Origin: Mustelus asterias
Taxonomy: Eukaryota
Length of the DNA: 64,000 nt
Direction of reading: 5' to 3'
NCBI RefSeq assembly: GCF_964213995.1
Contig: NC_135811.1
Location: 30,628,001-30,692,000, forward strand
The notes below the pieces were generated by a model, which worked only from the letters and a program-made list of their open reading frames with translations, ran no database searches and was not told where the DNA came from. Each line of letters opens with the position of its first letter. Position 1 is the stretch's first letter. The translations under genes were made by a program, and so were the position numbers. This document shows, in pieces, positions 1-61,981 of this stretch.

Positions 1-441
1 TAGAAAGCTGGTTTAATGGATTATCCACCATAATATCTTGCGTGTCTCTCGAGATCCCACCAGACTGTACTTTTTGCAAACCCTCATAGGAGTTAGCTGA
101 CATATGAGAAAAGTCATTGAGGTAATCTGGCTTCTGTACCAGCATGGAAGTAGGATTTAGATTAATCAGAAGTCTTGTCCCATAACTCAGGGAGTTGCTA
201 GTTTTTGTCTGTAAAACGCCCAACATTTTCTTATTGGTCAGGCAGGTCCTAGCACCTTTCAAGGGAAGAAGTTTGTGCCTACGTCTACGGTGATGGGACA
301 AATTACTTCGATCACTGCAGCAGAAGGAGCAAAGCTCACATTTGTATGGTTTTTCACCTGTGTGTGAGCGCATATGTGCTTCGAGATGCCGCTCATACGC
401 TGAAGCAAACGGGCATAGGTGACATCTGTGGGGCTTCTCAC
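1..441 (-). CDS. IKZF5: IKZF5/Pegasus paralogue B, last coding exon (ZF2, ZF3, central region); truncated by window edge
   Basis: Acceptor CAG at 444-442, then open frame (G)GEKPHRCHLCPFASAYERHLEAHMRSHTGEKPYKCELCSFCCSDRSNLSHHRRRRHK...MVDNPLNQLS to position 1. Matches vertebrate Pegasus. Confidence 0.95.
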
Positions 442-2054: not shown

Positions 2055-2234
2055 CTGTGTGCATTCTAATGTGCTCCATCAGCCGCGCAGTCCCTTTACT
2101 CGCATAGTTGCAGAATCGGCACTTCAGTTTTCCATCGTAGGTCCTTTCCAGCCCATCGCCCATAAACCCAGAGCCATCATCCAATGAAACTTCAACTGAA
2201 GCATGATGCATTCCATTCTGATCATTTTCTGATC
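2055..2234 (-). CDS. IKZF5: IKZF5 paralogue B, ZF1 exon (180 bp, phase 1-1)
   Basis: TAG acceptor 2237-2235; GSENDQNGMHHASVEVSLDD...KLKCRFCNYASKGTARLMEHIRMHT; donor G|GTAAT at 2054. Confidence 0.92.
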
Positions 2235-7967: not shown

Positions 7968-8100
7968 CAGTTTGTAGAGATGGTGGCTCTTTCTCCCCAC
8001 CAACAGACCCAGATATCATGTTCACATGCTGGGTTTGTTGAGTGAGATACTCCTGAAAGTCCTTGACAAAGTCTACGGAAGCAGCTCTCTTCTCATCCAT
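7968..8100 (-). CDS. IKZF5: IKZF5 paralogue B, first coding exon (CDS part; exon probably 7968-8134)
   Basis: MDEKRAASVDFVKDFQEYLTQQTQHVNMISGSVGGEKEPPSLQT, the Pegasus N-terminal motif. Donor G|GTAAG at 7967; AAG acceptor at 8137-8135. Confidence 0.95.
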
Positions 8101-12726: not shown

Positions 12727-15700
12727 ACAAAGAATACAGCACAGGAACAGGCCCTTCGGCCCTCCAACCCCGCGCCGCTCCCTGGTCCAAACTAGACCAT
12801 TCTTTTGTATCCCTCTATTCCCACTCCGTTCATGTGGCTATCTAGATAAGTCTTAAACGTTCCCAGTGTGTCCGCCTCCACCACCTTGCCTGGCAGCGCA
12901 TTCCAGGCCCCCACCACCCTCTGTGTAAAATACGTCCTTCTGATATCCATGTTAAACCTCCCCCCTTCACCTTGAACCTATGGCCCCTCATGAACGTCAC
13001 CACCAACCTGGGAAAAAGCTTCCCACTGTTCACCCTAATCTATGCCTCTCATAATTTTATACACCTCTATTAGGTCACCCCTCATCCTCCGTCTTTCCAG
13101 TGAGAACAACCCCAGTTTACACAATCTCTCCTCATAACTAAGCCCCTCCATACCGGGCAACATCCTGGTAAACCTCCTCTGCACTCTCTCTAAAGCCTCC
13201 ACGTCCTTCTGGTAGTGTGGCGACCAGAACTGGACGCAGTATTCCAAATGCGGCCGAACCAACATTCTATACAACTGCAACATTGGACCCCAACTTTTAT
13301 ACTCTATGCCCCGTCCTATAAAGGCAAGCATGCCATATGCCTTATTCACTACCTTCTCCACCTGTGACGTCACCTTCAAGGATCTGTGGACTTGCACACC
13401 CAGGTCCCTCTGCGTATCTACACCCTTTATGGTTCTGCCATTTATCGTATAGCTCCCCCCTACGTTAGTTCTACCAAAATGCATCACTTCGCATTTATCT
13501 GGATTGAACTCCATCTGCCATTTCTTTGCCCAAATTTCCAGCCTATCTATATCCTTCTGTAGCCTCTGACAATGTTCCTCACTATCTGCAAGTCCAGCCA
13601 TTTTCGTGTCATCCACAAACTTACTGATCACCCCAGTTACACCTTCTTCCAGATCGTTTATAAAAATCACAAACAGCAGAAGTCCCAATACAGAGCCCTG
13701 CGGAACACCACGAGTCACAGGCATCCAGCCGGAAAAAGACCCTTCCACTACCACCCTCTGTCTTCTTGACCAAGCCAGTTTTTCACCCATCTAGCTACCT
13801 CCCCCTTTATCCCATGAGATCCAACCTTTTGCACCAACCTACCATGAGGGACTTTGTCAAACGCTTTACTAAAGTCCATATAGACGACATCCACGGCCCT
13901 TCCCTTGTCAACCATTCTAGTCACTTCTTCAAAAAACTCCACCAGGTTAGTGAGGCATGACCACCCTCTCACAAAACCATGCTGACTATCGTTAATGAGT
14001 TTATTCCTTTCTAAATGCGCATACATCCTATCTCTAAAAATCCTCTCCAACAACTTCCCTACCACGGACGTCAAGCTCACCGGCCTATAATTTCCCGGGT
14101 TATCCTTCCTACCCTTCTTAAATAACGGGACCACATTAGCTATCCTCCAATCCTCTGGGACCTCACCTGTGTCCAGTGACGAAACAAAGATTTGCGTCCA
14201 GTGACGAAACAAAGATTTGCGTCAGAGGCCCAGCAATTTCATCTCTTGTCTCCCTGAGCAGCCTTGGATAGATTCCAACAGGCCCTGGGGATTTGTCAGT
14301 CTTTATATTCCCTAAAAAACCTAACACTTCCTCCCTTGTAATGGAGATTTTCTCTAACGGGTCAACACTCCCCTCCAAGACACTCCCAGTCAACACATCC
14401 CTCTCCTTTGTGAATACCGACGCAAAGTATTCATTTAGGATCTCCCCTACTTCTTTGGGCTCTAAGCATAATTCCCAACTTTTGTCCCTGAGAGGTCCGA
14501 TTTTTTCCCTGACAACCCTTTTGTTCCTAACGTATGAATAAAATGCCTTGGGATTCTCCTTAATCCTGTCTGCCAAGGACATTTCGTGACCCCTTTTTGC
14601 CCTTCTAATTCCTCGTTTGAGTTCTTTCCTACTTTCTTTGTATTCCTCCAGAGCTCCCTCCGTTTTTAGCTGCCTGGACCTAACGTACGCCTCTCTTTTC
14701 TTTTTGACCAATCCCTCAATTTTCCTGGTTATCCACGGTTCTTGAATCCTACCCTTCCTATCCTTCTTTTTTACAGGCACATGCCTGTCCTGTAGCCCTA
14801 ACAACTGTTCCTTAAAAGACTCCCACATGCCAGATGTGGATTTACCCTCAAACAGCCTCTCCCAATCAACAGCTGCCAATTTCTGCCTAATCCCACTAAA
14901 GTTAGCCTTCCCCCAATCCAACACCTTAACCTTGGGACACCACTCATCCTTTTCCATCACTATCCTAAAGCTAACAGAATTGTGGTCACTATTTGCCACA
15001 TGTTCTCCTACCAAAACTTTGAAGACCTGACCGGGCTCATTCCCCCAGTACTAGGTCCAGTATAGCCCCCTCTCTAGTCGGGCTATCTACATATTGTTCC
15101 AAAGAACCTTCCTGTACACATTTGACAAATTCCTCCCCATTCAGACTCCCAGCCCTACGCGATTTCCAGTCTATACCAGGGAAATTGAAGTCTCCCACTA
15201 CAACAACCCTATTTTTCCTGCACCTATCCATTATCTCCTGACATATCCGTTCTTCCACTTCCCTTGGGCTGTTGGGGGGCCTGTAGTATACCCCCAACAT
15301 AGTGACTGCGCCCTTCCTGTTTCTGAGCTCCACCCACAGTGACTTGTTACACGACCCCTCTGAATTGTCCTCCCTCTGCACCGCTGTAATATGCTCTCTA
15401 ACTAATACTGCTACTCCCCCACCTCTTTTGGCCTCTCCTCTGTCTCGCCTAAAACACTTGTACCCCGGAATATTCAGCTGCCAGTCCTGTCCCTCTTTCA
15501 ACCAAGTCTCTGTCACCGCAACGACATCCAAATCCCTCGTAAGCATTATGACCCTAAGTTCGTCTGTCTTACCTGCTACGCTCCTTGCATTGAAGTAGAT
15601 GCGCTCCAGACCTCCAGGCCCGTGAGGTCATCCTCCCCCAGAGTGCTCTTCTTCTTTGCCAGCCTTGTCCTGGCCCCAAGCTCATCCCCAGCCTCTACAC

Positions 15701-16600
15701 TTGTAGACATAATTTTTTGATCCCCACCCCCCTGCCATATTAGTTTAAACCCACCCGAACTGCACTAGCAAAACTCCCAGCCAGGATATTCGTGCCCTTC
15801 CAATTTAGTTGTGACCCATCCTTCTTGTACAGGTGCCATCCTCTCTTGAAAACTTCCCAGTGATCCAGGAATATGAAGCCCTCCCTCCTGGACCAGTCCT
15901 TTAGCCAAGCGTTCAATTGTACTATCTCCCTATTCCTAGCCTCACTGGCCCTAGGCATTGGGAGCAGCCCAGAGATTGCCACCCTGGAGTCCCTACTTTT
16001 TAGCCTATTTCCCAACTCCCTGAAATGCTCTCGTAGGATCCCCCTGCTCTTCCTATCTACATCATTTACACCAATGTGTACAATGACATCCGTTTCTTTT
16101 ATCCTCCCCTTTTAATATGCCTCCTATCCGCTCGGAGACATCCAGTACCCCAGCACCAGGTAGGCAGACTACCACCCTGGAGTCCTGTTCGCACACACAG
16201 AATCGCCTGTCCGTGCCTCTAACCGACGCGTCCCCCACCACTATTGCTCTCCTAATCCCTCTCTTTCCTTTCCGGGCCACAGAGCCTGACTGTGTGCCAG
16301 TGACCTGGTCACTGTGGCTTACCCCTGGAGAGTCATCCTCCTCCACACTATCCAAAACAATATACTTGTTTTGGAGGGGGACAACCACAGGTGACCCCTC
16401 CACTAATTGCTCACTCCCCTCCCCTCTCACACCTGTCGCCGAGAGACAGCCACTGGAATACACTCTGGTACGTTACCCTTGTGACCTTTACTCCTCCTAA
16501 CTGTGACCCACGTGTCTTCCCCGAGGCCCCGGTGTAACTACTTGCCTATAACTCATGTCTATTTGTCTCTCATTCTCCCTGACTAGACTAAGGTCATCAA
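12727..16600 (-). mobile_element. Nearly full-length CR1-clade LINE (ORF1 SGNH esterase-like; ORF2 APE endonuclease + RT), frameshifted
   Basis: ORF pieces: AIVVGDASVRG (16062-16463), TETWL/GVYYRPP/GDFN (15037-15546), YMDFSKAFDKVPH, GVPQGSVLG, KFVDD (13035-14212). Confidence 0.93.
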
Positions 16601-23907: not shown

Positions 23908-25329
23908 CAGGGGTCTCCAAACTACGGCCCGCGGGCCACATCTGGCCCGCAGCCAGTGGGGCGGGATGGGATTCCCGCTGCCGAAAACACTCCCCACGTC
24001 TGGAACCCCGCCGCTGACTCAGGATCCGGATGCGGGGACGGAAACCACAGGCCGGACATTTGCTGCCGCTCCACGCGGTGTCTGATACACCCATGGGAAT
24101 CCCCGCCCTCTTTACTGGCCTATTGTCCAATCAGAGCTGCCGTCCTGTGACTGACAGTTCATTAAACGAATCAGCAATTGAGACATCTATTATCCAATTG
24201 CCGCTCTGCATTGACTGCTTTATCCAATCCGTAAGCTCCATCTGTCTGAAATGAGCGGGAACAATGACAATGATGGCGGCAATTCAGACTAATTCAGTTA
24301 TGGAAGGAAAAAAGAAAAGTGGACAGTGAGTGCCGCCTGTTTAATGAAGAATGGGGTGTAACGTACTTCTTTGTACAAGCAGGTGATAAAGCCTTGTATG
24401 TCATATGCAACGAAACTGCTGCAGTTTTGAAGGAGTACAATGTACGTCGGCACTTTGAGACCAAACATGAACCAAGTTATTCCCAATTCACAGGAACACA
24501 GCATTCGGAAAATGCAACGCAGGTTGCTTTCCCAACAAGCTTTTTTTACGCAGAAGATAACTGAAAATGAAGCTTTAACCAGGGCCAATTACAAACTAGC
24601 TTACGTGCTGGCTAAAAGAGGAAAGCCATTCACCGATGGAGATCTCATCAAAGAGTGTATAATGGAAGCAGTGGAAGAGTTATGCCCAGAAAAAGCAAAT
24701 CTGTTCAAAATCATCAGTCTTGCGCCAAATACTGTTGCTCGTAGAATTGAAGATATAGGAAGCAATATATTTCATCAAATTGCAGACAAAGCAAGAAATT
24801 TTCAGTTGTATTCTCTCGCACCTGATGAATCGACTGATGTGTGAGACACATCACAACTCCTAGTATTCATCCGTGGCGTCGACAGTGAATTTAATGTGAC
24901 ACAAGAATTAGCATCAGTGCATAGCATGCACAGCACAGAAACTGGAGAAGACATCTTCAAAGAATTGCAAAAAACTGTGTTAGAATATAACCTGGAGTGG
25001 AATAAACTGCAATGCGTGACAATTGATGGAGGAAAGAACATGTCTGGGGTGAAGAAAGGTTTGGTTGGACAAATCACAAAAGCTTGTGAGGTTGGTGGAT
25101 TCTCAAAGCCCATGTTTCTGCATTGCATTATCCATCAACAAGCATTGTGCGGAAAATATGTGGATATGTCTTGCGTTCTGAAACCTGTTGTTTCAACAGT
25201 GAATTTCATTCGATCTTACGGGCTTAATCATCGCCTGTTCATTTATAAAACTAATGTTTTTTCTTTGGCCCCCGAAAATGTGTAAAATATACGATGTGGC
25301 CCTCGTACTGAAAAATTTGGAGACCCCTG
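23908..25329 (+). mobile_element. hAT (Charlie/OC1/SPIN-like) transposon, internally deleted, with pseudogenised transposase
   Basis: TIR CAGGGGTCTCCAAA at both ends; 8-bp TSD CTCTATGC/CTCTATGT. Motifs KRKVDSECRLFNEEW, KEYNVRRHFETKH, DESTD, TIDGGKNM, HCIIHQQALC; frameshift and stop present, C-terminal half missing. Confidence 0.93.
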
Positions 25330-26440: not shown

Positions 26441-26689
26441 GGCTGGTAAATTAATAACTGTAGTCAGTTCTGAATTACTTTGAAAATAGAGGCTTTTTTT
26501 AAAATGTCAGAAACCAAACTTTAACTCAAAGGGATCATCCTGAAAAGGATGAAGTTCCAATTTCCCAGTTGCTTGGCAGAAAATGTTCCACCATTTCTAT
26601 CCCCGCTACAATTTTGTTTAATTTTCGATGTTGGGCGATTAGTTTCACGGTTGACTGCTGGTGAGCCTTAGCTGTATGTAGGCTGACAA

Positions 26690-27420
26690 TGTCAGTGACC
26701 TGCTTCCCAGCGACTGAAGAGCACCCACTCTCTCAGACTAACCTGCTGGGCAAGGGGACGGGACCTGGCACCGCCGGTCGACCCCGTTCGTGCCCTCGCC
26801 GATGGAAAAGGGGAGGGTTTGAAGATGGAGAAGGGGGGGGGGGGGGGGGGGGTAAAAATTAAAAAAAACCCGGAGTCCCTAAAGGGATTAGGATGAGAAA
26901 GAAGCCGAGGCCCTGTCACAGGAGCCACCGGGGGGGAACCGTTAAACCGTCGCGTCGCGCGGCCTGCCCCCGAACTTCCAATTTTTAAAAAAAACCTCAT
27001 CGCCTTTAAAACACCAACTGCCGAGCGTTTCCCCAAAATATATACATACGTTTAGTTTTTAATCTTAGCCGTTCACTTACCTGCTAATTGACGTCTATGT
27101 GGAAAACACCTTTTCAGCAGAGTGACATCCCGGCCGGGCTGGCGGAGGTGCAGGCGGCCTTTTGAACGCGACCGGCTGCATCATCATCGACGGCCAGGTA
27201 TTTTAACGGAATTGCACATTTAAATTCTATTCTGGGTTTTTTTTTTCTCCGCCGAGCGAATCCTCTCGCTGGAAGATTGAAGCCAAGCGACCGAACAAAA
27301 GCTGGAAAGGGGGGTCAGAGTTCGGGGAGGGAGGAATCAGTGCGACGGCTTAACGAGTCCCCACGGAAACTGTCACCCTAGAAACCACAGCGCCAATAGG
27401 GTCCAGCAAGCTGCTCGGTG
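26690..27420 (-). promoter_or_regulatory. CpG island / probable promoter and non-coding exon 1 of IKZF5 paralogue B
   Basis: Non-repeat CpG-rich stretch with a consensus minus-strand donor CAG|GTAAGT (exon end 27081), upstream of the copy B coding exons. Confidence 0.7.
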
Positions 27421-36146: not shown

Positions 36147-37072
36147 TTAAGTTTGCTTATGCTGACCTCTGGCAAAATGACAAGCAAAATCATATTGGTT
36201 TTTACATTTACATCCACATATGTTACACTGAAATGGATTCTCATAACCATGGCACCCCATGTGAATAGTATAAAGGATATTGTCTGCAAAGTACATGTCA
36301 CAGTGTTGGCAGTGATGCAGAAGCTGGGGATCCTGGACTTGAATTGGAGGAGCAGGAGTGCTAGGTTGGCTGTTCGTCATGCAGGGTGAGCTCATGTGAG
36401 CACTGCGCTCACTATTAGGGCCTGGAACAGGACTGAAGGTTCTTTGATTATGCACAGGATGTCTATCAGGACTAGCATTGGATGAGCTTTGAGCCACACT
36501 AGAAACTACAGTAGTAACTATTGGTGCCATAGATTGTGGTATAAGATATGGTTTCTCATCTCTGCATGTCATATCAGAAGATGCTGGAGCTTGGTCATCT
36601 TGCGAAAGGCTGGAAAGCTGGCCAGCTAAGGCAGAAAGCTGGTTTAATGGATTATCCACCATCATGTCCTGTACATCCCTTGAGATTCCACTAGTCTGTG
36701 CTTTTGTCAGACCCTCATAAGATTCAGCTGAGATGTTATGAGAAAACTCATCAAGGTAATCTGTCTTCTGTGCCACCATGGGAGGACTGAAATTACTCAG
36801 AGGTCGTCTTCCATAACTCAGGGAGTAGCTGGATTTTTTCTGCAAAATTCCCATCATTCTCTTATTGGTCAGTGATGTCCTGCGTCCTTTTAGAGGAAGT
36901 AGTTTATGCCTGCGCCTGCGATGGTGGGATAAATTACTTTGATCACTGCAGCGAAAGGAACAAAGCTCACATTTATATGGTTTTTCACCTCTATGTGAGC
37001 GCATATGTGCTTCAAGGTGACGCTCATAAGCTGAAGCAAATGGACATAGGTGGCATCTGTGGGGTTTCTCAC
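36147..37072 (-). CDS. IKZF5: IKZF5/Pegasus paralogue A, last coding exon (ZF2, ZF3, C-terminal ZF4-5)
   Basis: CAG acceptor 37075-37073; open frame to TAA at 36149-36147; ends HHCQHCDMYFADNILYTIHMGCHGYENPFQCNICGCKCKNQYDFACHFARGQHKQT. Confidence 0.97.
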
Positions 37073-39319
37073 CTGCATGAGAAAGAACAAATCAGCAAAG
37101 TTATTCCACTTTTCCTCTTAAAACTTTATATCTTAAGCAAAATCTGAAAGATTTCTCTCCTTCAGGTTGGAAAAAATACCACTCAGCTTCCCAAATGCTT
37201 CTGTAAGTATTTGACATGAGCCAAACAGAGGAAAGCTTCAAGATTAGACCCCCTGCCTGTGCTGAGTTAGCTGATCTCAGTTCGAGCTGTATAACAAAAA
37301 TGCCCGTTTGCATTTCTAGGGAATGAGGGACCAGTGTTACTCATTCAGTGATTCATACTGGGAAATGCAAGTATATGGATATATGAGGCGAGGGGCAGCC
37401 AACTAGTCAATATGACCTGACGCGTCTCAGAAAGAGGTGAACATTTGAATGAGACAAAATTCCATGGGCATCCATGAAACTGTAGACCAGCAGAATCACC
37501 GTATTCAGGAAAAGGGAAAATGCAAACAAGTGAACATGACAGATAATATACTTAGTTTGAATATACGCCAACAGCTCCTGTTTTACCAAGGCTATTTTTT
37601 AATCTGTAGCCCAACCATTTAAAAATGATTGTCCCGTGACCAGAGTGTGTAAAAAGGAATATTGTTCTGGCTGTCACATTATAGAACTCCATTGGGAAAA
37701 GAAACTGTGCAAAGAATTAATGAAAAATTCAATCATGTCCAATAATAGTAACACAATAAATGTAAAATTATGGATCAAGGAAGTTGTTTGCGTCTTCCTG
37801 AACTTATACCACTGATTTTCCTATAAAGGAAACTGAGAAAAAAAAAGGATCTTCAGATGCAATCATTCTCTAAGCTTGCACATCAGAAAGACACACAATT
37901 TAATAACAAGCATTTTTAAAAATGACTACATGTTGGCCTGGAGTTTGCAGAAACAATGGTTAGGCTAACGTATATGGCCTAAATCAGAAAGCAACTTGCA
38001 GCAATCACATGTGCACATTTAAATGAAAAAAAAACAGACATTGCCGTCAGGAATACTCCGTCCCTCCACTGTTGCATTGCAACAGTTCTCGCAAATACTC
38101 AATATCACTGATGGTATCAAGTTGTGACAGTACCCAATAAAAAGCCCCAAAAAAGGTAAGGCTCAGTGCATTCAAGATCAGATTAAGCTTTAATGAAATA
38201 AGTGATGATCACTGCCAAACAACCTTCCTGGCCCCCAAAAATGTGACGTCTTATTCCTTCGAAGTTTGAGATTTTTAAATATATGCATTTTTCACATATT
38301 GTTTCTCATCTCTTTTAATCCCTTCTTTCCCAATCATAATTCCACTTTCTGTATGTGATTTTATATAGTGAATTAAGTGTATTCATACTTTCACTTCAGG
38401 CTTCCTGGTTTATACTCTATATCTCAGTGAGAATTCTTTAGTCTAATTTGAAGAGCCTTGCTGTTTTTTGTCCTGTTTAGACATCTAGATCTCCTGGAGA
38501 GTGCACCACACTAGAAATGATTTAATTGCATAACTTGCTTCAAAAGCTCATCAAAAATTTGTGGGCAACTGTCAATGTAATGCACAGCAAGCACCATTCC
38601 TGTCATTGACCGAAAGTCTAGATCAATATATCAGGAATAAATACCTCCTCCTAAGGTTTGCTTTATGGAATTAGTATGTATTCTTTTGTCAACATCAGTT
38701 AATATCTATCTTTGGAAAAACCCTGCACTCATCATCCTTCAATCTCCAGTGACCCCAAAATTTAATTGTTCTGGAGAAGATGAGCCTTGTAGCTTGCATT
38801 TCCAGACTGCAATATATATTCCAACTACATTTGGCTTGCAAAGCCAAAGTGAAGTGTTATGAAGCATAGACTCATGAAAATGTTCACCTGGAACACATTT
38901 GTACAAAAGCAACTGTACCATACCCCTCTGCATGTAAAGAATTAGTAATAATATCAAGTGCTGCAAATAAGCATAATGGCCACGATTTTTCAGGCCGTTC
39001 ACCGCGGGCACACAATCTGAGATCCCGGGCCCTCCCTACTGACATAACCAGGTTCACACTCAGTGAGGACGTGTACCAAACAACCAAGAATTTAAATTTA
39101 AGTATTCATAAATGGCCAACGCCATTGCTTTCGGGGTCATCAGATGTTCCGTCCTGCCAGCATGACGTAATGCTGGAGGCGAGTATAGCACCTGGGTGAT
39201 GAGTGACATGACCAGATGGGCACTGCCGTGGGTGGGGTCAGGGTCTCTAGGGATCACATTGGAGGGGGTGGATTCATATTATGTGGGATGCAGGCAATGG
39301 TGAGGGGAGGGGAAAAGTG

Positions 39320-40540
39320 GTCAAATAGTTCCAAGTCTGGAAGATGTGTAGCTTGGAGGGCAATGCTGCCCTTGTCCTTTGAGGTGGTAGAGGTTGCGGT
39401 TTTAGAAGGTGCTGTTCAAGCAGCCTTGGTGAGCTGCTGCAATGCATCCTGTAGAAGGTGGTTAAAGGGGTGGCAATGAAGCAGGCTGCTTTGTCCTAAA
39501 AAGTGTTGAACTTGTTCAGTGTTGTCACAGTCACACTCATACAAGCATGTGGAGAATCTTCCATTGAACTCCTGATTGTTCATATTTTAAAGGCACAGTC
39601 TTTGGGGAGTCAGGAGAGGAGTTACTTATCACAGAATTCCCAGCCTCTGACTTGGTCTTGTAGCCACATTATTTGTGTGTTTTTTTCAGTTCAGTTGCTG
39701 GTTAAAGATAACCCCCAGGATAGAGCGGCAAGGTGGCACAATGGGTAGCACTGCTGTCTCTGGGCGCCAGGGACCTGGGTTCAATTCCAGCCTTGGGCCA
39801 ATGTCTATGCGGAGTCTGCATGTTCTCCCCATGGCTGTGTGGGTTTCCTCTGGGTGCTCTGGTTTCCTCCCCCAGTCTGAAAGCCATGCTGGTTAGGTGT
39901 ATTGGCCATGCTAAATTCTCCCTCATTGTGGTGCCGGAGTGTGGTGACTTGGGGATTTTCACAGTAACTTCATTGCAGTGTTAATGTAAGCCTACTTGTG
40001 GCACTAATAAATAAACTTTAGGATGTAGATAGTGGCTAATTCAGTGATTGGAATGCATTTGAATGTCAATGGGAGATAGTTAGGATTCTCCCTTGGAGAT
40101 AGTCATTGCTTCGCACTTGTGTGACATGAATGTTACTTTACGTATCCAGCCCAAGCCTGGATACGTCATCCAGCTCCTGTTGCATGCCAGAGTGGACTGT
40201 TTCAGTATCTATGGAGTCACGAAAAGTACTGAATACGGTGCAATCATCAGCAAACAACCCCATTTCTGATCTTATGATGGAGGGAAGATCATTGATGGAG
40301 CAGCGGAAGACGGATTTACACTGGGACACTACCCTGAGGAACTCCTGGTGCGACATGCTGGATTTGAGATGATCTTCCTCCTACATCCATTTTCCTTTGT
40401 GCTATGTATGGCTCTAAACCAGTGATGAGTTTTCCCAATTTTCATTGACTTCAGTTTTACGAGGCCTCCTTGATTCTACAGGTGGTCAAATGCTGCCTTG
40501 ATGTAAAGGGCAGTCATCCCAACCTCATGTACTTAGAGTT
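39320..40540 (-). mobile_element. Decayed LINE RT fragment with nested V-SINE (39725-40018, +)
   Basis: INDLPSIIRSEMGLFADDCTVF (ORF 40138-40356). Confidence 0.75.
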
Positions 40541-41072
40541 TCAGAGACTAGAAGAAGTGATATGTAAATCGCAAAATTCAGTATCAAAATTGACCAAAAA
40601 CAGAAAATTTGGTGCCTGAAACATTTTAACAACAGGAATATAAAAGTGTTTTAATGGCAGAGTGCAATGTGTCATGTTGTATGGGTATGGATATATGTTA
40701 TATATGCACAAAGGTATGATGTAGGTATACATGAAATATTCACTGTTTTTAAACTAATGACTGTATGATATTTTATACTGGAAGTAAAGCCAAAGACAAA
40801 TTTTCACTGTTGCGTGGACAATAAAGCTTCCTTCTATTCTATTAGCCGGTAAGGAATACTAAAATTAATGATGTGAAGGAATTGATAGAGGTTTTTAAAA
40901 TCCTTTTATGAATAGCATAGGGGTCTAATTAGCTCAATTGGCTAGCAAGTAGTTCATAATAACACCAACGGCATGAGTTCAATTTCTGTTCTGGTTGAGA
41001 TAGACTTGGGATCAGTCCCCTCACCCTGCTCCTGAGGCTGGAAGGCAATGGCAAACCACTGACAAAAAAAAG

Positions 41073-41580
41073 GTAAGAAGTCTCATAACACCAGGTTAAA
41101 GTCCAACAGATTTATTTGGTAGCAAAAGCCACTAGCTTTCGGAGCGCTGCCCCTTCGTCAGGTAAGTGGGAGTTCTGTCCACAAACAGGGCATATAAAGA
41201 CACAAACTCAATTTACAAAATAATGGTTGGAATGCGAGTCTTTACAGGTAATCAAGTCTTAAAGATACAGACAATGTGAGTGGAGAGAGCGTTAAGCACA
41301 GGTTAAAGAGATGTGTATTGTCTCCAGACAGGACAGTTAATGAGATTTACCTTTAAGACTTGATTACCTGTAAAGACTCGCATTCCAACCATTATTTTGT
41401 AAATTGAGTTTGTGTCTTTATATGCCCCGTTTGTGAACAGAACTCCCACTTACCTGGCGAAGGAGCAGCGCTCCGAAAGCTAGTGGCTTTTGCTACTAAA
41501 TAAACCTGTTGGACTTTAACCTGGTGTTGAGAGACTTCTTACTGTGTTTACCCCAGTCCAACGCCGGCATCTCCACATCA
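41073..41580. mobile_element. Penelope-like element end with 192-bp inverted arms (41073-41264 / 41351-41542)
   Basis: Near-perfect inverted repeat plus tail TGTGTTTACCCCAGTCCAACGCCGGCATCTCCACATCA, shared with the copies at 27902 and 50248. Confidence 0.8.
41129..41165 (-). ncRNA. Minimal hammerhead ribozyme motif (Penelope-type)
   Basis: Minus strand UUAC-CUGACGA-A-GGGGC(AGC)GCUCC-GAAA-GCUA-GUGG: core, stem II, palindromic AGCU, stem I. Confidence 0.6.
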
Positions 41581-41778
41581 AAAAAAAATGCCAGGGGAAG
41601 TTGCTCAGGATGAAGATGATGAACAAACGTCCTACTTTTGTGCAAAGCACAAATGAATGAAGCATCCAATCAAAAGCATGTGAGTAGTCACACTATTTTA
41701 CCTAACCAGTTCTGAGTTCAACATAGTAACTCAATAGTTGGTGCTTAATTGTGTAAGCTATCCTGTCAAATCTATTAC

Positions 41779-41961
41779 CTGTGTGCATTCTTGTGTGCTC
41801 CATCAATCGTGCTATCCCTTTGCTAGCATAGTTACAGTACTGACACTTCAGTTTTCCATCAACCGTTCTTTCTGGTCCTTCTCCTATCATTCCAGCGCCA
41901 TCATCAAGAGAAACCTCAACAGAAGCATGGTGGATTCCATTTTGGTGATTTTCAGTCCCAG
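41779..41961 (-). CDS. IKZF5: IKZF5 paralogue A, ZF1 exon (183 bp, phase 1-1)
   Basis: CAG acceptor 41964-41962; AGTENHQNGIHHASVEVSLDD...KLKCQYCNYASKGIARLMEHTRMHT; donor G|GTAAT at 41778. Confidence 0.95.
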
Positions 41962-45343: not shown

Positions 45344-45476
45344 CAGGCTGAAGTAATTCTGGTTCCTTTTCATTACATACTGAGCCGGAAATCATATTTA
45401 CATGCTGTGTTTGCTGAGTGAGATACTCTTGAAAATCCTTGACAAAGTCTACAGAATCATTTCTCTTTTCTCGCAT
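45344..45476 (-). CDS. IKZF5: IKZF5 paralogue A, first coding exon (CDS part; exon probably 45344-45508)
   Basis: MREKRNDSVDFVKDFQEYLTQQTQHVNMISGSVCNEKEPELLQP; donor G|GTAAG. The three exons sum to 133+183+926=1242 nt, i.e. 413 aa plus stop. Confidence 0.96.
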
Positions 45477-50247: not shown

Positions 50248-50524
50248 GTAAGAGTTTTAACAACACCAGGTTAAAGTCCAACAGGTTTATTTGGTAGCAA
50301 ATGCCATTAGCTTTCGGAGCGCTGCTCCTTCGTCAGATGGAGTGGATATTTGCTCTCAAACAGGGCATACAGAGACACAAAATCAAGTTACAGAATACTG
50401 ATTAGAATGCGAATCTCTACAACCAACCTGGTCTTAAAGATACAGACAATGTTGGACTTTAACCTGGTGTTGTTAAAACTCTTACTGTGTTTACCCCAGT
50501 CCAATGCCGGCATCTCCACATCAT
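50248..50524. mobile_element. Penelope-like element end with short inverted arms
   Basis: Same family as 41073; flanked by an imperfect duplication TGTACCTATGCCA / TGTACCTACACCA. Confidence 0.78.
50304..50340 (-). ncRNA. Minimal hammerhead ribozyme motif (Penelope-type)
   Basis: Minus strand CCAU-CUGACGA-A-GGAGC(AGC)GCUCC-GAAA-GCUA-AUGG, with perfect stem I and stem II. Confidence 0.65.
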
Positions 50525-51179: not shown

Positions 51180-52300
51180 TCCCGCCTGCCCAGCCAGCCA
51201 GCCCTCCTGTAAGGCCGGGGGCTCCAGTTTACAAATGGCTGTTGTGGTGACTCCAACAACCTGGCTCCGACAAAGAGCCCGCCCCCTTCCCCCGCGCCCA
51301 TTGGTTCAAATCAGCGGAACGTCAGAGCCGCGCAGCCTGCGATTGGTCAGTCGGACTGTCACTCACAGAGCGGGCGGCTCAGAGTTAACATTGAGAAACG
51401 GGCCGCGTTATTTTAAATATCGACAGACACAACATTCCCCCCCCCCTCCAAAAATTACACACTAAACAGGTACAAGATAAATGGCTTGGGGGGGGGGTGG
51501 TTAAAATCGTCAGTCTCTTCTCCACCCCTCCCCCAATGTTTCTCACAAGTTGTGTTGTCGGCCGACGACAGAGGCGGCTCGAGCGCTTTCGGTTATTTTT
51601 CAAATGGCCCATCCGGGAGTTGGATTGTTGGGGGGAGGGGAATCAGGCCCGGGGAGAGCAGAGTCTCCCCCCTCCATCCATACCTTCAGCTTAATTCCAT
51701 TCACTCGACAGCGGCTTCCAAACAGCACAACATAGCGGGGCTCCCGCTGAGGGAGAAAGACGGGCTTGTAGACAGGAGGCGAGATGGGCGAAGGAGGAGA
51801 GGGCCACCCCCACTTTGCTTTTTTTTTGGATGGGTGTCCGAGGGAGGAAGCTTTTCGCTTTTTAAAAGATTTTCTCCGGCCGATTTCCCTTTAACCACAA
51901 ATCCCCTCCGAAGACGAAGGGAACAAAAGGCCGGCGTCGATGTCACAGTTGAGATGGGACACACATCCGCGGGTATCCAGCTGGAAGTGACATCAGCGGG
52001 CGGGGCTGCACCATGCCTATCACCGGAGCTTAGGCCTGTTAGCGGGGCAAAGCCAGGAGGCAGTCCTACAGTAGGCTGCTGCTGTTGTTGCTCCTCCTCC
52101 ACTGCAACCTTGTGGGACTAATTTCCCCCGTACTCGTAAAATACACGGTATTTTCTTTTAAGCAAAATGGAAATAGCGTCAGTTTTTTGTTTTTCCGGGT
52201 CAAAATCAATATAGTGGTGATGTTACGTGTGAAATCTCGCCACTCCCTTTAAACAGCAGTTGCATACTAATTTGTCCAAGATACTCTAGCGTCTGTTACA
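51180..52300. promoter_or_regulatory. CpG island, probable bidirectional promoter (IKZF5-A minus, neighbour plus), including candidate non-coding exon ending at 51684
   Basis: CpG-rich. GC box (~51278), two CCAAT boxes (ATTGG at 51300 and 51342), ETS/CRE-like GGAAGTGACATCA at 51983, minus-strand donor AAG|GTATGG at 51683. Confidence 0.75.
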
Positions 52301-52309
52301 AAGGACGAA

Positions 52310-52336
52310 ATGGCGATTTGGTCATTGCTTTCCAGG
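52310..52336 (+). CDS. Candidate first coding exon of the divergent neighbour gene (probably ACADSB): MAIWSLLSR
   Basis: Strong Kozak context GAAATGG and consensus donor AGG|GTGAGT (phase 0) at the edge of the CpG island. ACADSB is head-to-head with IKZF5 in mammals. Identity is inferred from synteny; no later exon was recognised. Confidence 0.5.
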
Positions 52337-52819
52337 GTGAGTAGAGTTTCTGCTACTCAGCAATTTGGATTTGCCTCCAAAGTAGCTGGATATTTATCGT
52401 TTGCTTAATGTATAATAAATGCTTTGCGCAAATACATCACTAACAACGGATTCTATTTGCATGGAGCTTTTGATGTGGTAAAATATGATGCTTCACCGGA
52501 ACATTGCCAAGTGAAATTTGGCACCAAGCCACACATGGGCAGTTAACCAGAAGCTTGGTCGAAAGGCTAAGTTTCAGGGAAAATCTTAAAAAGACGGAAG
52601 CGAGTTAGTGAGGCGAAGAGATGTAGGGAGGAAGTTCCGGGTTGTCGACCTTATCTAGTTGAGGGTGCAGTTGCCAAGGTGTACAATGATTAAAATTGAG
52701 GTTGCTGAAAAGATGAAAGTTGCATATATCTTGGAGGGTTGCAGGGCTGTTGAAGATTACAATGATAGAGAGGGTCAAGGTCAGGGAGGGATTTTAAAAC
52801 AATTGTGAGAACTTTAAAC

Positions 52820-58509: not shown

Positions 58510-61500
58510 TGTTTTTAGGAAGTAGAGTTGGCTAAGTAAATGGTATTTGGCATAAACTATAGTTTTATGTTAGGGTATTAATTTTAAGTTCAAGCTAAAT
58601 TTATATTTCTCAATTTGTATGTGACTTGAGTTATTTCACTTTAAAATATGCCTGCATTTTAATTAGATTTTATGACTCTAGAGCATGTAGGGCCAAAACA
58701 AAAACTGATCTGGGCTGTTGCTTAGTCACAAGAAGCCACAAGGGAACAGAAAGCAACTTGAGGTTCAGTTGTTCTATGGTGAAGGGAGCAGTTTAAGCCT
58801 CAGGATATGAAAGGAGACTGCAGAGAACAGGCATTAAATTAAAAAACTGAAAGACCCCAAAACCAGGGAGAGGGACAGAAGGAAGTCCCAAGAAAACCTT
58901 CTAGTCGTAGAAAAAGAACAAGAAACTGGAAAAGATCCAGTTAAGTGCAGTGAAGAGCAGAAGTTCCAAGTTAAAAGACAAGATGCCGACCTGATATAAC
59001 GTGGGCTTGTGAGAAGCCAGAGATCCAAAGGGACCCAAAAGTTGGTGACTCTACCACTGCCTGTAAAGCAGTGGTATTTTTTTGGCATGGTTGGGTATCT
59101 GTGAGTTTGCGTAGAAGCCAAAACTTTAATGCACATTATGCTCCAGGGCAGAGGAACAAACAAAGAGAGATTCAAACACTGGAGGTCGGTTCTTGACATT
59201 CGGGAGAAGATTCCATCTTCCAGAGTTGAGATCGGCAACCCATGTGTGGGAGACAGCATTCCAGTGAGATCAGTTGACTCACAAGCATCTAGGGAATTGA
59301 TAAGAAATCCAAAGAAGTTGTTTTGGATGGCATTTGTCTCTTGGTTTCAGAGTGTGGTGTGTCTGACCACAGTTATAGAGTCAAAGGTTTACAACATGGA
59401 AACAGGCCCTTTGGCCCAACTTGTCCATGCCACCTTTTTTTTTTGAAACCCCTAAATTAATCCCAATTGCCCGCATCCCTCTATACTCATCGGATCCATG
59501 TAACTATCTAAATGCTTTTTAAAAGATAAAATTGTACCCGCCTCTACTACTACCTCTGGCAGCTAGTTCCAGACACTCACCACCCTCTGTGAAAAAATTG
59601 CCCTCTAAACACTTTTGTATCTCTCCCCTCTCACCTTAAACCTATGCCCTCTAGTTTTAGACTTCCTTACCTTTGGGAAAAGATATTGACTATCTACCTT
59701 GTCTATGCCCCTCATTATTTTATAGACCTCTATAAGGTCACCCCTCAGCCTCCTACGCTCCAAGGAAAAAAGTCCCAGTCTATTCAACCTCTCCTTATAA
59801 CTCAATCCATCAAGTCCCGGTAGCATCCTAGTAAATCTTTTCTGCACTCTTTCTAGTTTAATAATATCCTTTCTATTATAGGGTGACCAGAATTGCACAC
59901 AGTATTCCAAGTGTGGCCTTAACAATGTCTTGTACAACTTCAACAAGACGTCCCAACTCCTGTATTCAATGTTCTGACCGATGAAACCAAGAATGCCGAA
60001 TGCCGCCTTCACCACTTTGTCCACCTGTGACTTCACTTTCAAGGAGCTATGAACATGTACCCCTAGATCTTTTTGTTCTGTAACTCTCCCCAGCGCCCTA
60101 CCATTAACTGAGTAAGTCCTGCTCTGGTTCAATCTACCAAAATGCATCACCTCGCATTTGTTTAAATTAAACTCCATCTGCCATTCATCAGCCCTCTGGC
60201 CCAATTGATCAAGATCCCGCTGCAATTGGAGATAACCTTCCTCACTGTCCACCATGCCACCAATCTTGGTGTCATCTGCAAACTTACTAACCATGCCCCC
60301 TATATTCTCATCCAAATCATTAATATAAATGACAAATAACAGTGGGCCCAGCACTGATCCCTGAGGCACACCGCTGGTCACAGGCCTCCAGTTTGAAAAA
60401 ACTACTCTCTACAACCACCCCAATTTTGTATCCATTTACATACCTCACCCTGGATCCCATGAGATTTAACTTTATGCAACAACCTACCATGCGGTACCTT
60501 GTCAAAGGCCTTGCTAAAGTCCATGTTGACAGCATCAACTACACTGCCCTCATCTACCTTCTTGGTTACCCCTTCAAAAAACTCAATCAAATTTGTGAGA
60601 CATGATTTTCCACTCACAAAGCCATGCTGACTGTCCCTAATCAGTCCTTGCATCTCTAAATGCCTGCAGATCCTGTCTCTCAAAATACCTTCCAACAATT
60701 TACCCATCACAGATGTGAGGCTCACTGGCCTGTAGTTCCCAGGCTTTTCCCTGCAGCCCTTTTTAAACAAAGGCACAGCATTTGCCACTCTCCAATCTTC
60801 AGGCACCTCACCCGTGACTATCGATGATTCAAATATCTCGGCTAGGGGACCCGCAATTTCCTCCCTAGCCTCCCACAATGTCCTGGGATATACTTCATCA
60901 GGTCCCGGGGATTTATCTACCTTGATGCGCTTTAAGACTTCCAGCACCACCTCCTCTGTAATATGTACACTCCTCAAGACATCAATATTTATTTCCCCAA
61001 GTTCCCTAACATCCATGCTTTTCTCAACAGTAAATACTGATGAGAGATATTCATTTAGGACCTCACCCATCTCTTGTTGCTCAGCACATAGATGACCTTG
61101 TTGATCCTTAAGAGGCCCTACTCTCTCCCTTGTTACTCTTTTGCCCTTTATGTATTTGTAGAAGCTCTTTGGATTTTCCTTTGCCTTATCTGCCAAAACA
61201 ATTTCGTGTCCCTTTTTGCCCTCCTGATTTCTCTCTTAACTCTACTCCTACACCCCCTATACTCCAAGAGATTCACCTGGTCCCAGCTGCCTATGCACGT
61301 CATGTGCCTCTTTCTTCTTCTTGATTAGGGCCTCAATATCCCGAGTCATCCAGGGTTCTTGACTTCTGCCAGCCTTGCCCTTCACTCTAAGAGGAATGTG
61401 TTTACCCTGAACCCTGGTTAACACACTTTTGAAAGCATGCCACTTATCAGACGTCCTTTTTCCTTCCCACAGACTCCCCCAATTAACTTTTGAAAGTTCC

Positions 61501-61981
61501 TGTCTGATACCATCAAAATTGGCCTTGCCCCAATTTAGAATATTAACTTTTGGGACAGACCTATCATTCTCCATAGCTATCTTAAAACTAATAGAATTAT
61601 GGTCACTGGTCCTAAAGTGATGCCTCACTAACACTTCTGTCACCTGCCCTTCCTTATTTCCCAAGAGGAGGTCAAGTTCGCCTATATTGGTTTACATAGA
61701 TTGTGTACTTACTGAGAACAATAGAGTGTAAGACTTTGTCACATGTCCTACCCTTGCAGATCTATAAAGATATAGTTGCAGTGAAGGAATAGTGTATTAT
61801 AGTTTCATCTTTTCTTCTTTAATAGATGCTTTATTATTTTGTTAAAAGTTTCTTAGCTGACTCCTGTGATTCTGTTCAGTAGCTGCTCTACACATATCTA
61901 AACAAAAGTTGAGTTCAATCAAGCCAGGTCCCACCCTAGGATCTGAGTTGTCCAATAGTAGCATCAGCTGGGATCGTAATA
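58510..61981 (+). mobile_element. LTR-like element split by a CR1 insertion
   Basis: The sequence on both sides of the LINE appears to join at GACCACAGTT|CGCCTATA; ends ...GCTGGGATCGTAATA. Left boundary uncertain. Confidence 0.45.
59373..61680 (-). mobile_element. 5'-truncated CR1 LINE ORF2
   Basis: ORFs 59605-60381 (GVPQGSVLGP, KFADD), 60402-61196 and 61257-61664. Confidence 0.93.

What the first reader, a model, noticed from the sequence alone, without database searches (positions are those of the whole stretch)
36960..41850. Asymmetric zinc-finger divergence: copy A has an RGEKP linker and altered helix +1 residues
Seen, relative to copy B and the remembered human Pegasus sequence: copy A has ZF1 SKGIAR (T>I, helix +1), the ZF2-ZF3 linker HRGEKP instead of HTGEKP, and ZF3 SDQSNL (R>Q, +1). 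Copy B keeps these residues but has SFCCSD (R>C) in ZF3. The main base-contact positions (-1, +2, +3, +6) are unchanged. Known: the TGEKP threonine caps the helix, stabilises DNA binding, and is the mitotic phosphorylation site that releases Ikaros from chromatin. Inference: same motif but different affinity or mitotic regulation, so one copy may modulate the other.
Basis: partly seen in the sequence, partly recalled or inferred. Interest (0 to 1): 0.7.

Follow-up and report, generated by a model that had tools for sequence, protein, structure and literature searches.

The report
Sharks' ancient second Pegasus gene
Sharks, rays and chimaeras carry two side-by-side copies of the transcription factor Pegasus (IKZF5); one copy changed several otherwise constant zinc-finger residues long ago and has kept them since, which suggests, untested, that it grips the same DNA differently.

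Summary
The substitutions are real and not private. The window holds two tandem ikzf5/Pegasus genes with open frames (A complete; B cut by the window edge; exon DNA 77-81% identical). Copy A's T94I, T133R (RGEKP) and R150Q occur in 20 of 20 named chondrichthyan species, including the chimaera Callorhinchus (~420 My split), in 0 of 15 B orthologues and 0 of 11 non-teleost bony-vertebrate proteins; lamprey shows they are derived. The A stem took 16 changes against 2 on B (p=0.001), then stayed as conserved as B or more. Positions -1, +2, +3, +6 are unchanged. T94 also turned hydrophobic in teleost and lamprey duplicates. Best reading (0.55): same site, retuned grip, one of two linker phospho-switches lost, oligomerisation altered. 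A keeps its first TGEKP linker, so full mitotic retention is doubtful; relaxation then entrenchment (0.25) is not excluded; finger-only asymmetry is not significant (6 vs 1). No binding or tissue-expression data. Both copies are annotated 'Pegasus-like'; my searches found no paper on the pair. New variant of a known kind.

The parts
45344..45476 (-). ikzf5 copy A, coding exon 1 (ATG at 45476; 133 nt, GT donor)
41779..41961 (-). ikzf5 copy A, coding exon 2 (183 nt, AG/GT); ZF1 at 41783-41845 with Q85 (41840-41842), I94 (41813-41815, helix +1), T101 (41792-41794); ends in the intact T of linker 1 (TGEKP spans the intron)
36147..37072 (-). ikzf5 copy A, coding exon 3 (926 nt, to stop); ZF2 36993-37055, ZF3 36906-36971, ZF4 36249-36311, ZF5 36159-36227
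36978..36992 (-). ZF2-ZF3 linker RGEKP of copy A (T133R, codon AGA at 36990-36992)
   Evidence: Arg in 20 of 20 A species, Thr in 15 of 15 B and 11 of 11 outgroups
36939..36941 (-). ZF3 helix +1 Gln of copy A (R150Q)
36195..36197 (-).
7968..8100 (-). ikzf5 copy B, coding exon 1 (133 nt)
2055..2234 (-). ikzf5 copy B, coding exon 2 (180 nt); ZF1 at 2059-2121 with ancestral R85, T94, I101
1..441 (-). ikzf5 copy B, start of coding exon 3 (cut by the window edge); TGEKP linker 347-361, C146 at 320-322, R150 at 308-310
51251..52250 (.). CpG island upstream of copy A: candidate promoter (inferred)
   Evidence: GC 0.51-0.56, CpG o/e 0.77
26501..27250 (.). CpG island between the copies, upstream of copy B: candidate promoter of B (inferred)
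   Evidence: GC 0.52, CpG o/e 0.72-1.02

Best explanation
ikzf5 was duplicated in tandem, most likely in the stem of cartilaginous fishes. Copy B kept the ancestral protein almost unchanged; copy A took a burst of changes before chimaeras and elasmobranchs split and has been held by purifying selection since (shown by sequence). A most likely still reads the Pegasus site, because every canonical base-reading residue is unchanged, but holds it differently (inferred): T133R removes the helix-capping, mitotically phosphorylated threonine between ZF2 and ZF3 and adds a positive charge; R150Q and T94I alter helix +1 side chains beside the base readers; R85Q and I101T alter the ZF1 scaffold; K404Q removes a basic residue in the last dimerisation finger. 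The expected result is a paralogue with the same core motif, probably lower or differently distributed affinity, one mitotic off-switch instead of two, and weaker or more selective oligomerisation, used in its own context under its own promoter.
For: Fixation of six finger changes in 20 of 20 A species, none in 15 B or 11 outgroup proteins; lamprey Pegasus has T94, T133, R146, R150 and basic residues at 85 and 404. Stem lengths 0.11 (A) vs 0.008 (B); 16 vs 2 stem changes, binomial p=0.0013. After the burst A is as conserved as B or more in the same 15 species: ZF1-3 0.013 vs 0.018, ZF4-5 0.005 vs 0.021, residues 1-83 0.03-0.05 vs 0.12-0.15. Positions -1/+2/+3/+6 unchanged; three of six finger changes sit at helix +1 (post hoc hypergeometric p~0.001). 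Linker Thr caps the helix and its mitotic phosphorylation lowers DNA binding (PMC4359306 Introduction, PMC4300507 and PMC5337899 passages). Last-finger +1 is Gln in 41 of 41 A-type proteins and Lys/Arg in 196 of 202 other Ikaros-type domains; it aligns with the Arg 17 residues from the C-terminus of an Ikaros protein, which is R502 if human IKAROS has 519 residues (recalled); R502L partly impairs dimerisation (PMC8330404 passage). T94 became I/M/V in other duplicates: 35 of 39 teleost copy-2 proteins vs 0 of 24 copy-1, a second teleost subclade and a second lamprey gene; A plus teleost copy 2 is rejected as one clade (AU p=3.4e-07). Full-length A and B frames on 1.4-2.0 kb contigs in skate clusters imply spliced transcripts.
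Against: No binding, phosphorylation or tissue-expression measurement. Finger-only asymmetry is 6 vs 1 (p=0.125), and ZF1-3 changes (5 of 76 outgroup-invariant sites) are not clearly denser than elsewhere (7 of 164). Relative-rate tests reach p<0.05 in 7 of 12 species-outgroup pairs, 0 of 3 in the skate Amblyraja. Pairwise A/B dN/dS is low (dN 0.117, dS 1.0; ZF1-3 dN 0.038, dS 1.3), so positive selection is not shown. R85Q, R150Q and R146C start from CpG-containing codons and recur elsewhere (R150Q in 2 caviomorph proteins, R146C in 3 of 111 others and in one skate A). Net charge of ZF1-3 is +8 in both Callorhinchus copies, so T133R may simply compensate. A keeps T105 in linker 1. No IKZF5-DNA or Ikaros-type dimer structure was found to model on.
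Confidence: 0.55

Rival explanations
1. Relaxation then entrenchment: while B covered the function, A fixed nearly neutral, partly compensating changes (T133R offsets the charge lost by R150Q and R85Q); the two genes then split expression or dosage, and both proteins do the same biochemical job.
For: Several changes are easy transitions that recur in other duplicates; finger changes not clearly enriched over other invariant sites; equal net charge; separate CpG islands that do not align with each other; chondrichthyan genomes evolve slowly (PMC8455134 passages), so freezing is partly expected.
Against: T133 never varies in 99 of 99 bony-vertebrate clusters, duplicates included; Gln at last-finger +1 is unique to A among 243 domains; three of six changes hit the same helix position; no reversion at six sites in 20 species.
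Confidence: 0.25
2. New specificity: the +1 changes in ZF1 and ZF3 and the altered linker shift the register or the flanks of the motif, or its sensitivity to methylation, so A has its own targets.
For: +1 lies next to the base readers; T94 changes repeatedly in duplicates while copy-1 genes keep it; A is strongly conserved.
Against: All -1/+2/+3/+6 residues are unchanged, whereas a cricetid rodent duplicate changed -1, +2 or +3 in all three fingers, which is what a specificity shift looks like in this family.
Confidence: 0.12
3. A is a weak-binding modulator that tempers B through mixed oligomers, like dominant-negative IKAROS forms.
For: ZF4-5 of A and B differ at few positions. Complex prediction of the A and B dimerisation domains: weak support, score 0.58, best of 3 controls 0.00, runs agree in at least 96% of contacts, partner pLDDT at least 81; the mark was reached by 51 of 78 solved complexes and 2 of 108 mismatches, but at 0.60 or under by only 5 of 78 solved complexes and all 4 mismatches that passed; it cannot tell A-B from A-A or B-B. 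Missense variants in the N-terminal fingers of human IKZF5 reduce chromatin binding (PMC8431765 passage).
Against: K404Q sits where an IKAROS variant weakens dimerisation; elasmobranch B has its own change in the domain (E389K, 34 of 39 rows); A's DNA-binding fingers are frozen, not decaying; co-expression unknown.
Confidence: 0.07
4. Assembly duplicate, private alleles or a decaying pseudogene.
For: None found.
Against: Exon DNA only 77-81% identical and introns do not align; A's frame is open with AG/GT junctions; both copies in 15 named species, on records with the same longest-contig length in 14 of them.
Confidence: 0.01

Closest known systems
IKZF5 / Pegasus (Ikaros family), single-copy in the tetrapod, bichir and gar proteins examined
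   Same: Three N-terminal C2H2 fingers plus two C-terminal dimerisation fingers; all -1/+2/+3/+6 residues identical; about 71% identity of A's last exon to the mammalian protein; placed inside the IKZF5 tree.
   Different: Two tandem copies; A has R85Q, T94I, I101T, T133R, R150Q and K404Q at sites invariant in 11 of 11 non-teleost bony-vertebrate proteins; B has R146C.
RefSeq/UniRef 'zinc finger protein Pegasus(-like)' models of chondrichthyans (e.g. Callorhinchus XP_042192914.1 and XP_007902116.1; Heptranchias XP_067858408.1 and XP_067858411.1)
   Same: These are the orthologues of A and B; the existence of two models per genome is already in the databases.
   Different: The names do not separate the two lineages and say nothing on the finger changes; my paper searches found no description of the pair.
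Mitotic linker-phosphorylation switch of C2H2 proteins (Ikaros, Sp1, YY1, CTCF; Cdk1, TOPK/PBK)
   Same: Linker 1 of A and both linkers of B are TGEKP, the consensus substrate (PMC4300507, PMC4359306).
   Different: Linker 2 of A has Arg at the phospho-acceptor position; phosphorylation of Pegasus linkers itself is assumed from the family, not shown in the papers I saw.
Teleost second ikzf5 copy ('Pegasus-like') and second lamprey Pegasus-like gene
   Same: Independent duplicates in which T94 became Met, Ile or Val and R85 was often lost.
   Different: Not orthologous to A (AU p=3.4e-07 for the teleost copy); they keep T133, R150 and a basic residue at 404.
IKAROS dimerisation-defective variant R502L
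   Same: Same helix +1 position of the last finger, by alignment with an Ikaros protein (human length of 519 recalled); loss of a basic residue.
   Different: R502L is a rare human disease allele (PMC8330404); K404Q is fixed in a whole gene lineage and its effect is unmeasured.

Membership tests
IKZF5 / Pegasus subfamily | Three (not four) N-terminal C2H2 fingers | tested here: met
   ZF1-3 at residues 84-161 in both copies
IKZF5 / Pegasus subfamily | C-terminal pair of Ikaros-type dimerisation fingers | tested here: met
   ZF4-5 at 36159-36311 in A; B's lie beyond the window edge but are present in its orthologues
IKZF5 / Pegasus subfamily | Groups with IKZF5 of bony vertebrates and lamprey, not with IKZF1-4 | tested here: met
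   Best hits are all Pegasus; 72-74% identity to mammal and bichir Pegasus vs 25% to an Ikaros protein; trees (IKZF1-4 were not in the trees)
IKZF5 / Pegasus subfamily | Pegasus-type recognition residues at -1, +2, +3, +6 | tested here: met
   needs EMSA or SELEX
IKZF5 / Pegasus subfamily | Self-association through ZF4-5 | tested here: inconclusive
   weak support for an A-B complex, 0.58 vs best control 0.00
C2H2 proteins under linker-phosphorylation control | Ser/Thr at linker position 1 with Lys/Arg at +3 | tested here: inconclusive
   met at linker 1 (T105), not met at linker 2 (R133) of copy A; met at both in B
Asymmetrically diverged duplicate (burst, then constraint) | Excess of fixed changes on one stem followed by equal or stronger conservation | tested here: met
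   16 vs 2 stem changes, p=0.0013; stems 0.11 vs 0.008; later conservation
Asymmetrically diverged duplicate (burst, then constraint) | Positive selection on the A stem (branch-site test) | not tested
   no orthologous coding DNA was held; pairwise A/B dN/dS is about 0.12

The most novel reading that the evidence does not exclude
Copy A is a chondrichthyan-only Pegasus that was rewired at three control points at once: it has lost the ZF2-ZF3 mitotic off-switch and so stays partly bound in mitosis as a bookmark, it oligomerises preferentially with itself because of K404Q (with E389K in B as the counterpart), and helix +1 is a general tuning knob that Pegasus duplicates turn again and again. The pair would be a 400-million-year natural experiment on the TGEKP phospho-switch and on Ikaros-family partner choice.
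Probability: 0.15. Interest if true: 0.75.

Novelty: new variant of a known kind. Interest (0 to 1): 0.5.

Why it matters
IKZF5 is the least understood Ikaros member, is linked to inherited thrombocytopenia, and its DNA-binding fingers are almost invariant from lamprey to mammals. A paralogue that changed six of those residues and then kept them for about 420 million years gives ready-made, viable variants for three open questions: what the linker threonine does in a living three-finger protein (capping versus mitotic release), what helix +1 contributes to binding, and how Ikaros-type dimerisation fingers choose partners. It also flags that one-to-one 'ikzf5' labels in shark transcriptomes mix two different genes. 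If A and B behave alike, it is an ordinary retained duplicate.

Tried and rejected
No whole genome is held, so synteny beyond the window and B's 3' end were not read directly. Run search: no RNA holder listed; no reads were laid, so expression of this genome's own copies is open. No IKZF5 structure and no Ikaros-type dimerisation-finger structure among the PDB hits shown (best 60 of 105 and 60 of 126 listed in the last two), so contacts were not modelled and no fold prediction was run. GNNTGTNG-type sites: 6 in the A island and 1 in the B island against 141 in the window, too weak to claim autoregulation. The five changed ZF1-3 sites are not significantly the ones that vary in other vertebrates (4 of 5 vs 28 of 60, Fisher p=0.20). 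An A-type protein outside chondrichthyans: none among the best 120 of 271 hits nor among 37 new sequences checked. Orthology of A with the teleost second copy: rejected. A duplication older than jawed vertebrates with loss of A in bony fishes and tetrapods: disfavoured (A+B 91/93 and 97/97; informative sites 5 vs 1 vs 1) but not rejected (AU p=0.14); gene conversion between the copies was not tested beyond noting high dS in most segments. ACADSB-like exons downstream of the A island: none found with short recalled motifs. Rfam: 0 matches. The 65-row tree is the quick tree only. Papers not held: Lentaigne 2019 and PMC10128159; the older Pegasus and Ikaros-evolution papers (Perdomo 2000, John and Ward 2011) were seen only as references and could mention a shark duplicate. 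Earlier scan notes: none on this gene.
Full report
Observation. The window is shark DNA with two ikzf5 (Pegasus) genes in tandem on the minus strand. Copy A has coding exons at 45476-45344, 41961-41779 and 37072-36147 (413 residues, one terminal stop, AG/GT junctions); copy B has exons at 8100-7968, 2234-2055 and 441 to beyond the window edge. Exon DNA is 77-81% identical and the introns do not align; over 250 aligned codons dS is about 1.0 and dN 0.117. This is an old duplication, not an assembly duplicate. The helix numbering is right and positions -1, +2, +3 and +6 are unchanged in all five fingers.

Are the changes fixed? A search with A's last exon gave 306 hits, 120 listed; eight chondrichthyan clusters were expanded (15 of 18 and 15 of 16 members listed for the two largest). 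Taking one named full-length protein per species and dropping isoforms and unnamed rows left 20 A, 15 B and 11 non-teleost bony-vertebrate proteins. R85Q, T94I, I101T, T133R, R150Q and K404Q are each in 20 of 20 A proteins, from Callorhinchus through sharks to rays and skates, and in none of the 15 B or 11 outgroup proteins; R146C is in 15 of 15 B and 1 of 20 A. Callorhinchus split from elasmobranchs about 420 million years ago (PMC8455134, passages). Full-length A frames on contigs of 1.6-2.0 kb and a B frame on 1.4 kb in the skate clusters imply spliced transcripts, since A's coding region spans 9.3 kb here.

Polarity and age. Lamprey Pegasus (P0208, P0218) has T94, T133, R146, R150 and basic residues at 85 and 404, so A's states and B's C146 are derived. 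Trees give A+B as a chondrichthyan clade (100/100 without lamprey; 91/93 and 97/97 with lamprey). The alternative, an older duplication with A lost in bony vertebrates, is disfavoured by site patterns (5 vs 1 vs 1) but not rejected (AU p=0.14). No A-type protein turned up outside chondrichthyans among the best 120 of 271 hits.

Asymmetry. The A stem is 0.11 changes per site, the B stem 0.008. Stem changes polarised by the outgroups number 16 on A and 2 on B (p=0.0013; 6 more could not be polarised); for the fingers alone 6 vs 1 (p=0.125). Relative-rate tests reach p<0.05 in 7 of 12 pairs and in none of 3 for Amblyraja. After the burst A is as conserved as B or more in the same 15 species: ZF1-3 0.013 vs 0.018, ZF4-5 0.005 vs 0.021, residues 1-44 0.032 vs 0.116, 45-83 0.052 vs 0.153; only residues 261-365 vary more in A (0.142 vs 0.111). 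This is a 'burst then freeze' duplicate. Positive selection is not shown; no branch-site test could be run.

What the changed positions do. The linker threonine caps the preceding helix, and its phosphorylation in mitosis by Cdk1 or TOPK lowers DNA binding in Ikaros, Sp1, YY1 and CTCF (PMC4359306 Introduction and passages; PMC4300507 passages; PMC5337899 passages). None of the passages seen tests Pegasus. T133 is invariant in 99 of 99 bony-vertebrate clusters with intact fingers (of 112), and Arg at this linker position is rare in general (13 of 938 linkers in 101 unrelated proteins). But A keeps T105 in the ZF1-ZF2 linker, so it loses one of two switches, and CTCF passages suggest such effects are graded. 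Three of A's six finger changes are at helix +1 (ZF1, ZF3, ZF5; post hoc p~0.001). The ZF5 change is unique: Gln in 41 of 41 A-type proteins, Lys or Arg in 196 of 202 other Ikaros-type domains (proteins, not independent species). It aligns with the Arg 17 residues from the end of an Ikaros protein, which is R502 if human IKAROS is 519 residues long (recalled); R502L partly impairs dimerisation (PMC8330404 passage). Elasmobranch B has its own change in this domain, E389K (34 of 39 rows). A prediction of the A and B dimerisation domains together gave weak support: 0.58 against a best control of 0.00, contacts agreeing in at least 96%, partner pLDDT at least 81, alignments not used; scores of 0.60 or under were reached by only 5 of 78 solved complexes and by all 4 mismatches that passed, and close relatives cannot be told apart.

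Parallel changes. T94 is Thr in 24 of 24 teleost copy-1 proteins but Met, Ile or Val in 35 of 39 copy-2 proteins, all of which also have R85S. A separate characiform and knifefish subclade of copy 2 has Ile or Val (quick tree), and a second lamprey gene has Ile. A and the teleost copy are not one clade (AU p=3.4e-07). So ZF1 +1 changed at least four times, each time in a duplicate. Against over-reading this: Thr to Ile or Met is one transition, and R85Q, R150Q and R146C start from CpG codons; R150Q recurs in two caviomorph proteins and R146C in three others. Net charge of ZF1-3 is +8 in both Callorhinchus copies against +9 in outgroups, so T133R may compensate for lost arginines.

Mechanism. 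Shown: two old, constrained paralogues; a one-sided burst; unchanged base readers; loss of one linker phospho-acceptor; a unique change in the dimerisation finger. Inferred: A reads the same core site with altered affinity or kinetics, is released less completely in mitosis, and oligomerises more weakly or selectively (0.55). Rivals: near-neutral fixation and entrenchment with split expression (0.25); a new motif (0.12), made less likely by the contrast with a cricetid duplicate that did change -1, +2 or +3; a decoy that tempers B (0.07); artefact (0.01).

Known or new. Both genes are annotated as Pegasus or Pegasus-like in public genomes. Searches for a description of the pair found none: ikzf5+shark+duplicat gave one paper whose passages are unrelated (PMC11203038); the whale-shark genome paper has no ikzf mention in its main text; (11 listed; 15 of 2,885 listed) showed nothing on it by listing; RGEKP occurs in none of the 14 linker papers listed. 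Subscription papers and supplements were not searched, and older Ikaros-evolution papers were seen only as references. Reviews seen in passages (PMC8431765, PMC8689071, PMC7395261, PMC13177390, PMC11185177) describe Pegasus as the most divergent and poorly understood member, with N-terminal finger variants causing thrombocytopenia. The scan's earlier notes hold nothing on this gene.

Verdict. A real, lineage-wide, apparently undescribed variant of a known gene. Asymmetric divergence after duplication is a familiar pattern, and all function is inferred, but the frozen T133R, the helix +1 pattern and K404Q make a clean test set. Interest 0.5.

Noticed in passing
window 41066-41267 and 41348-41549: Inverted repeat in A's second intron, about 230 nt past the ZF1 exon: 202-nt arms, 94% complementary, 80-nt spacer; folds as a long RNA hairpin, z=-35. 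The arm is a dispersed repeat (82% copy at 50248-50442). A possible editing or splicing-relevant dsRNA; untested.
   Followed up: partly
window 52310-52342 (+): ATG, nine codons and a GTGAGT donor just beyond A's CpG island: candidate first exon of a head-to-head neighbour (ACADSB is the human neighbour, recalled). No further exons found in the window.
   Followed up: partly
window ~27081 (-): CAG/GTAAG donor inside B's CpG island: candidate non-coding first exon, implying a 5' intron of about 19 kb.
   Followed up: partly
window 12800-16500 and 59500-61700 (-): Broken CR1-like LINE copies, 66% identical to each other, with RVT_1 hits and a GDSL/SGNH esterase-like ORF1 piece at 15743-16111.
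   Followed up: partly
window 24274-25285 (+): Broken reading frames that look like a hAT-type (GTF2IRD2/SPIN-like) transposase by recall; no Pfam hit.
   Followed up: no
P0110, P0118, P0090: A fast-evolving Pegasus copy in cricetid rodents (branch about 0.7) with changed -1, +2 or +3 residues in all three DNA-binding fingers: a better candidate for a new DNA motif than shark copy A.
   Followed up: partly
P0229, P0346: A second, very divergent Pegasus-like gene in Lampetra with T94I and G93D, A95R in ZF1.
   Followed up: partly
P0143 (Rhinoraja copy A): Carries B's R146C on an otherwise A-type protein: recurrent CpG change or a short gene conversion.
   Followed up: no
P0002 vs P0158; P0154: Heptranchias A has 5 Ser/Thr-Pro sites against 7 in B; Callorhinchus A and B have 7 each. 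A's stem also replaced T257, T338 and S342.
   Followed up: no
P0038, P0065: Chinchilla and guinea-pig Pegasus-like proteins share R150Q with shark copy A; whether they are extra copies was not checked.
   Followed up: no
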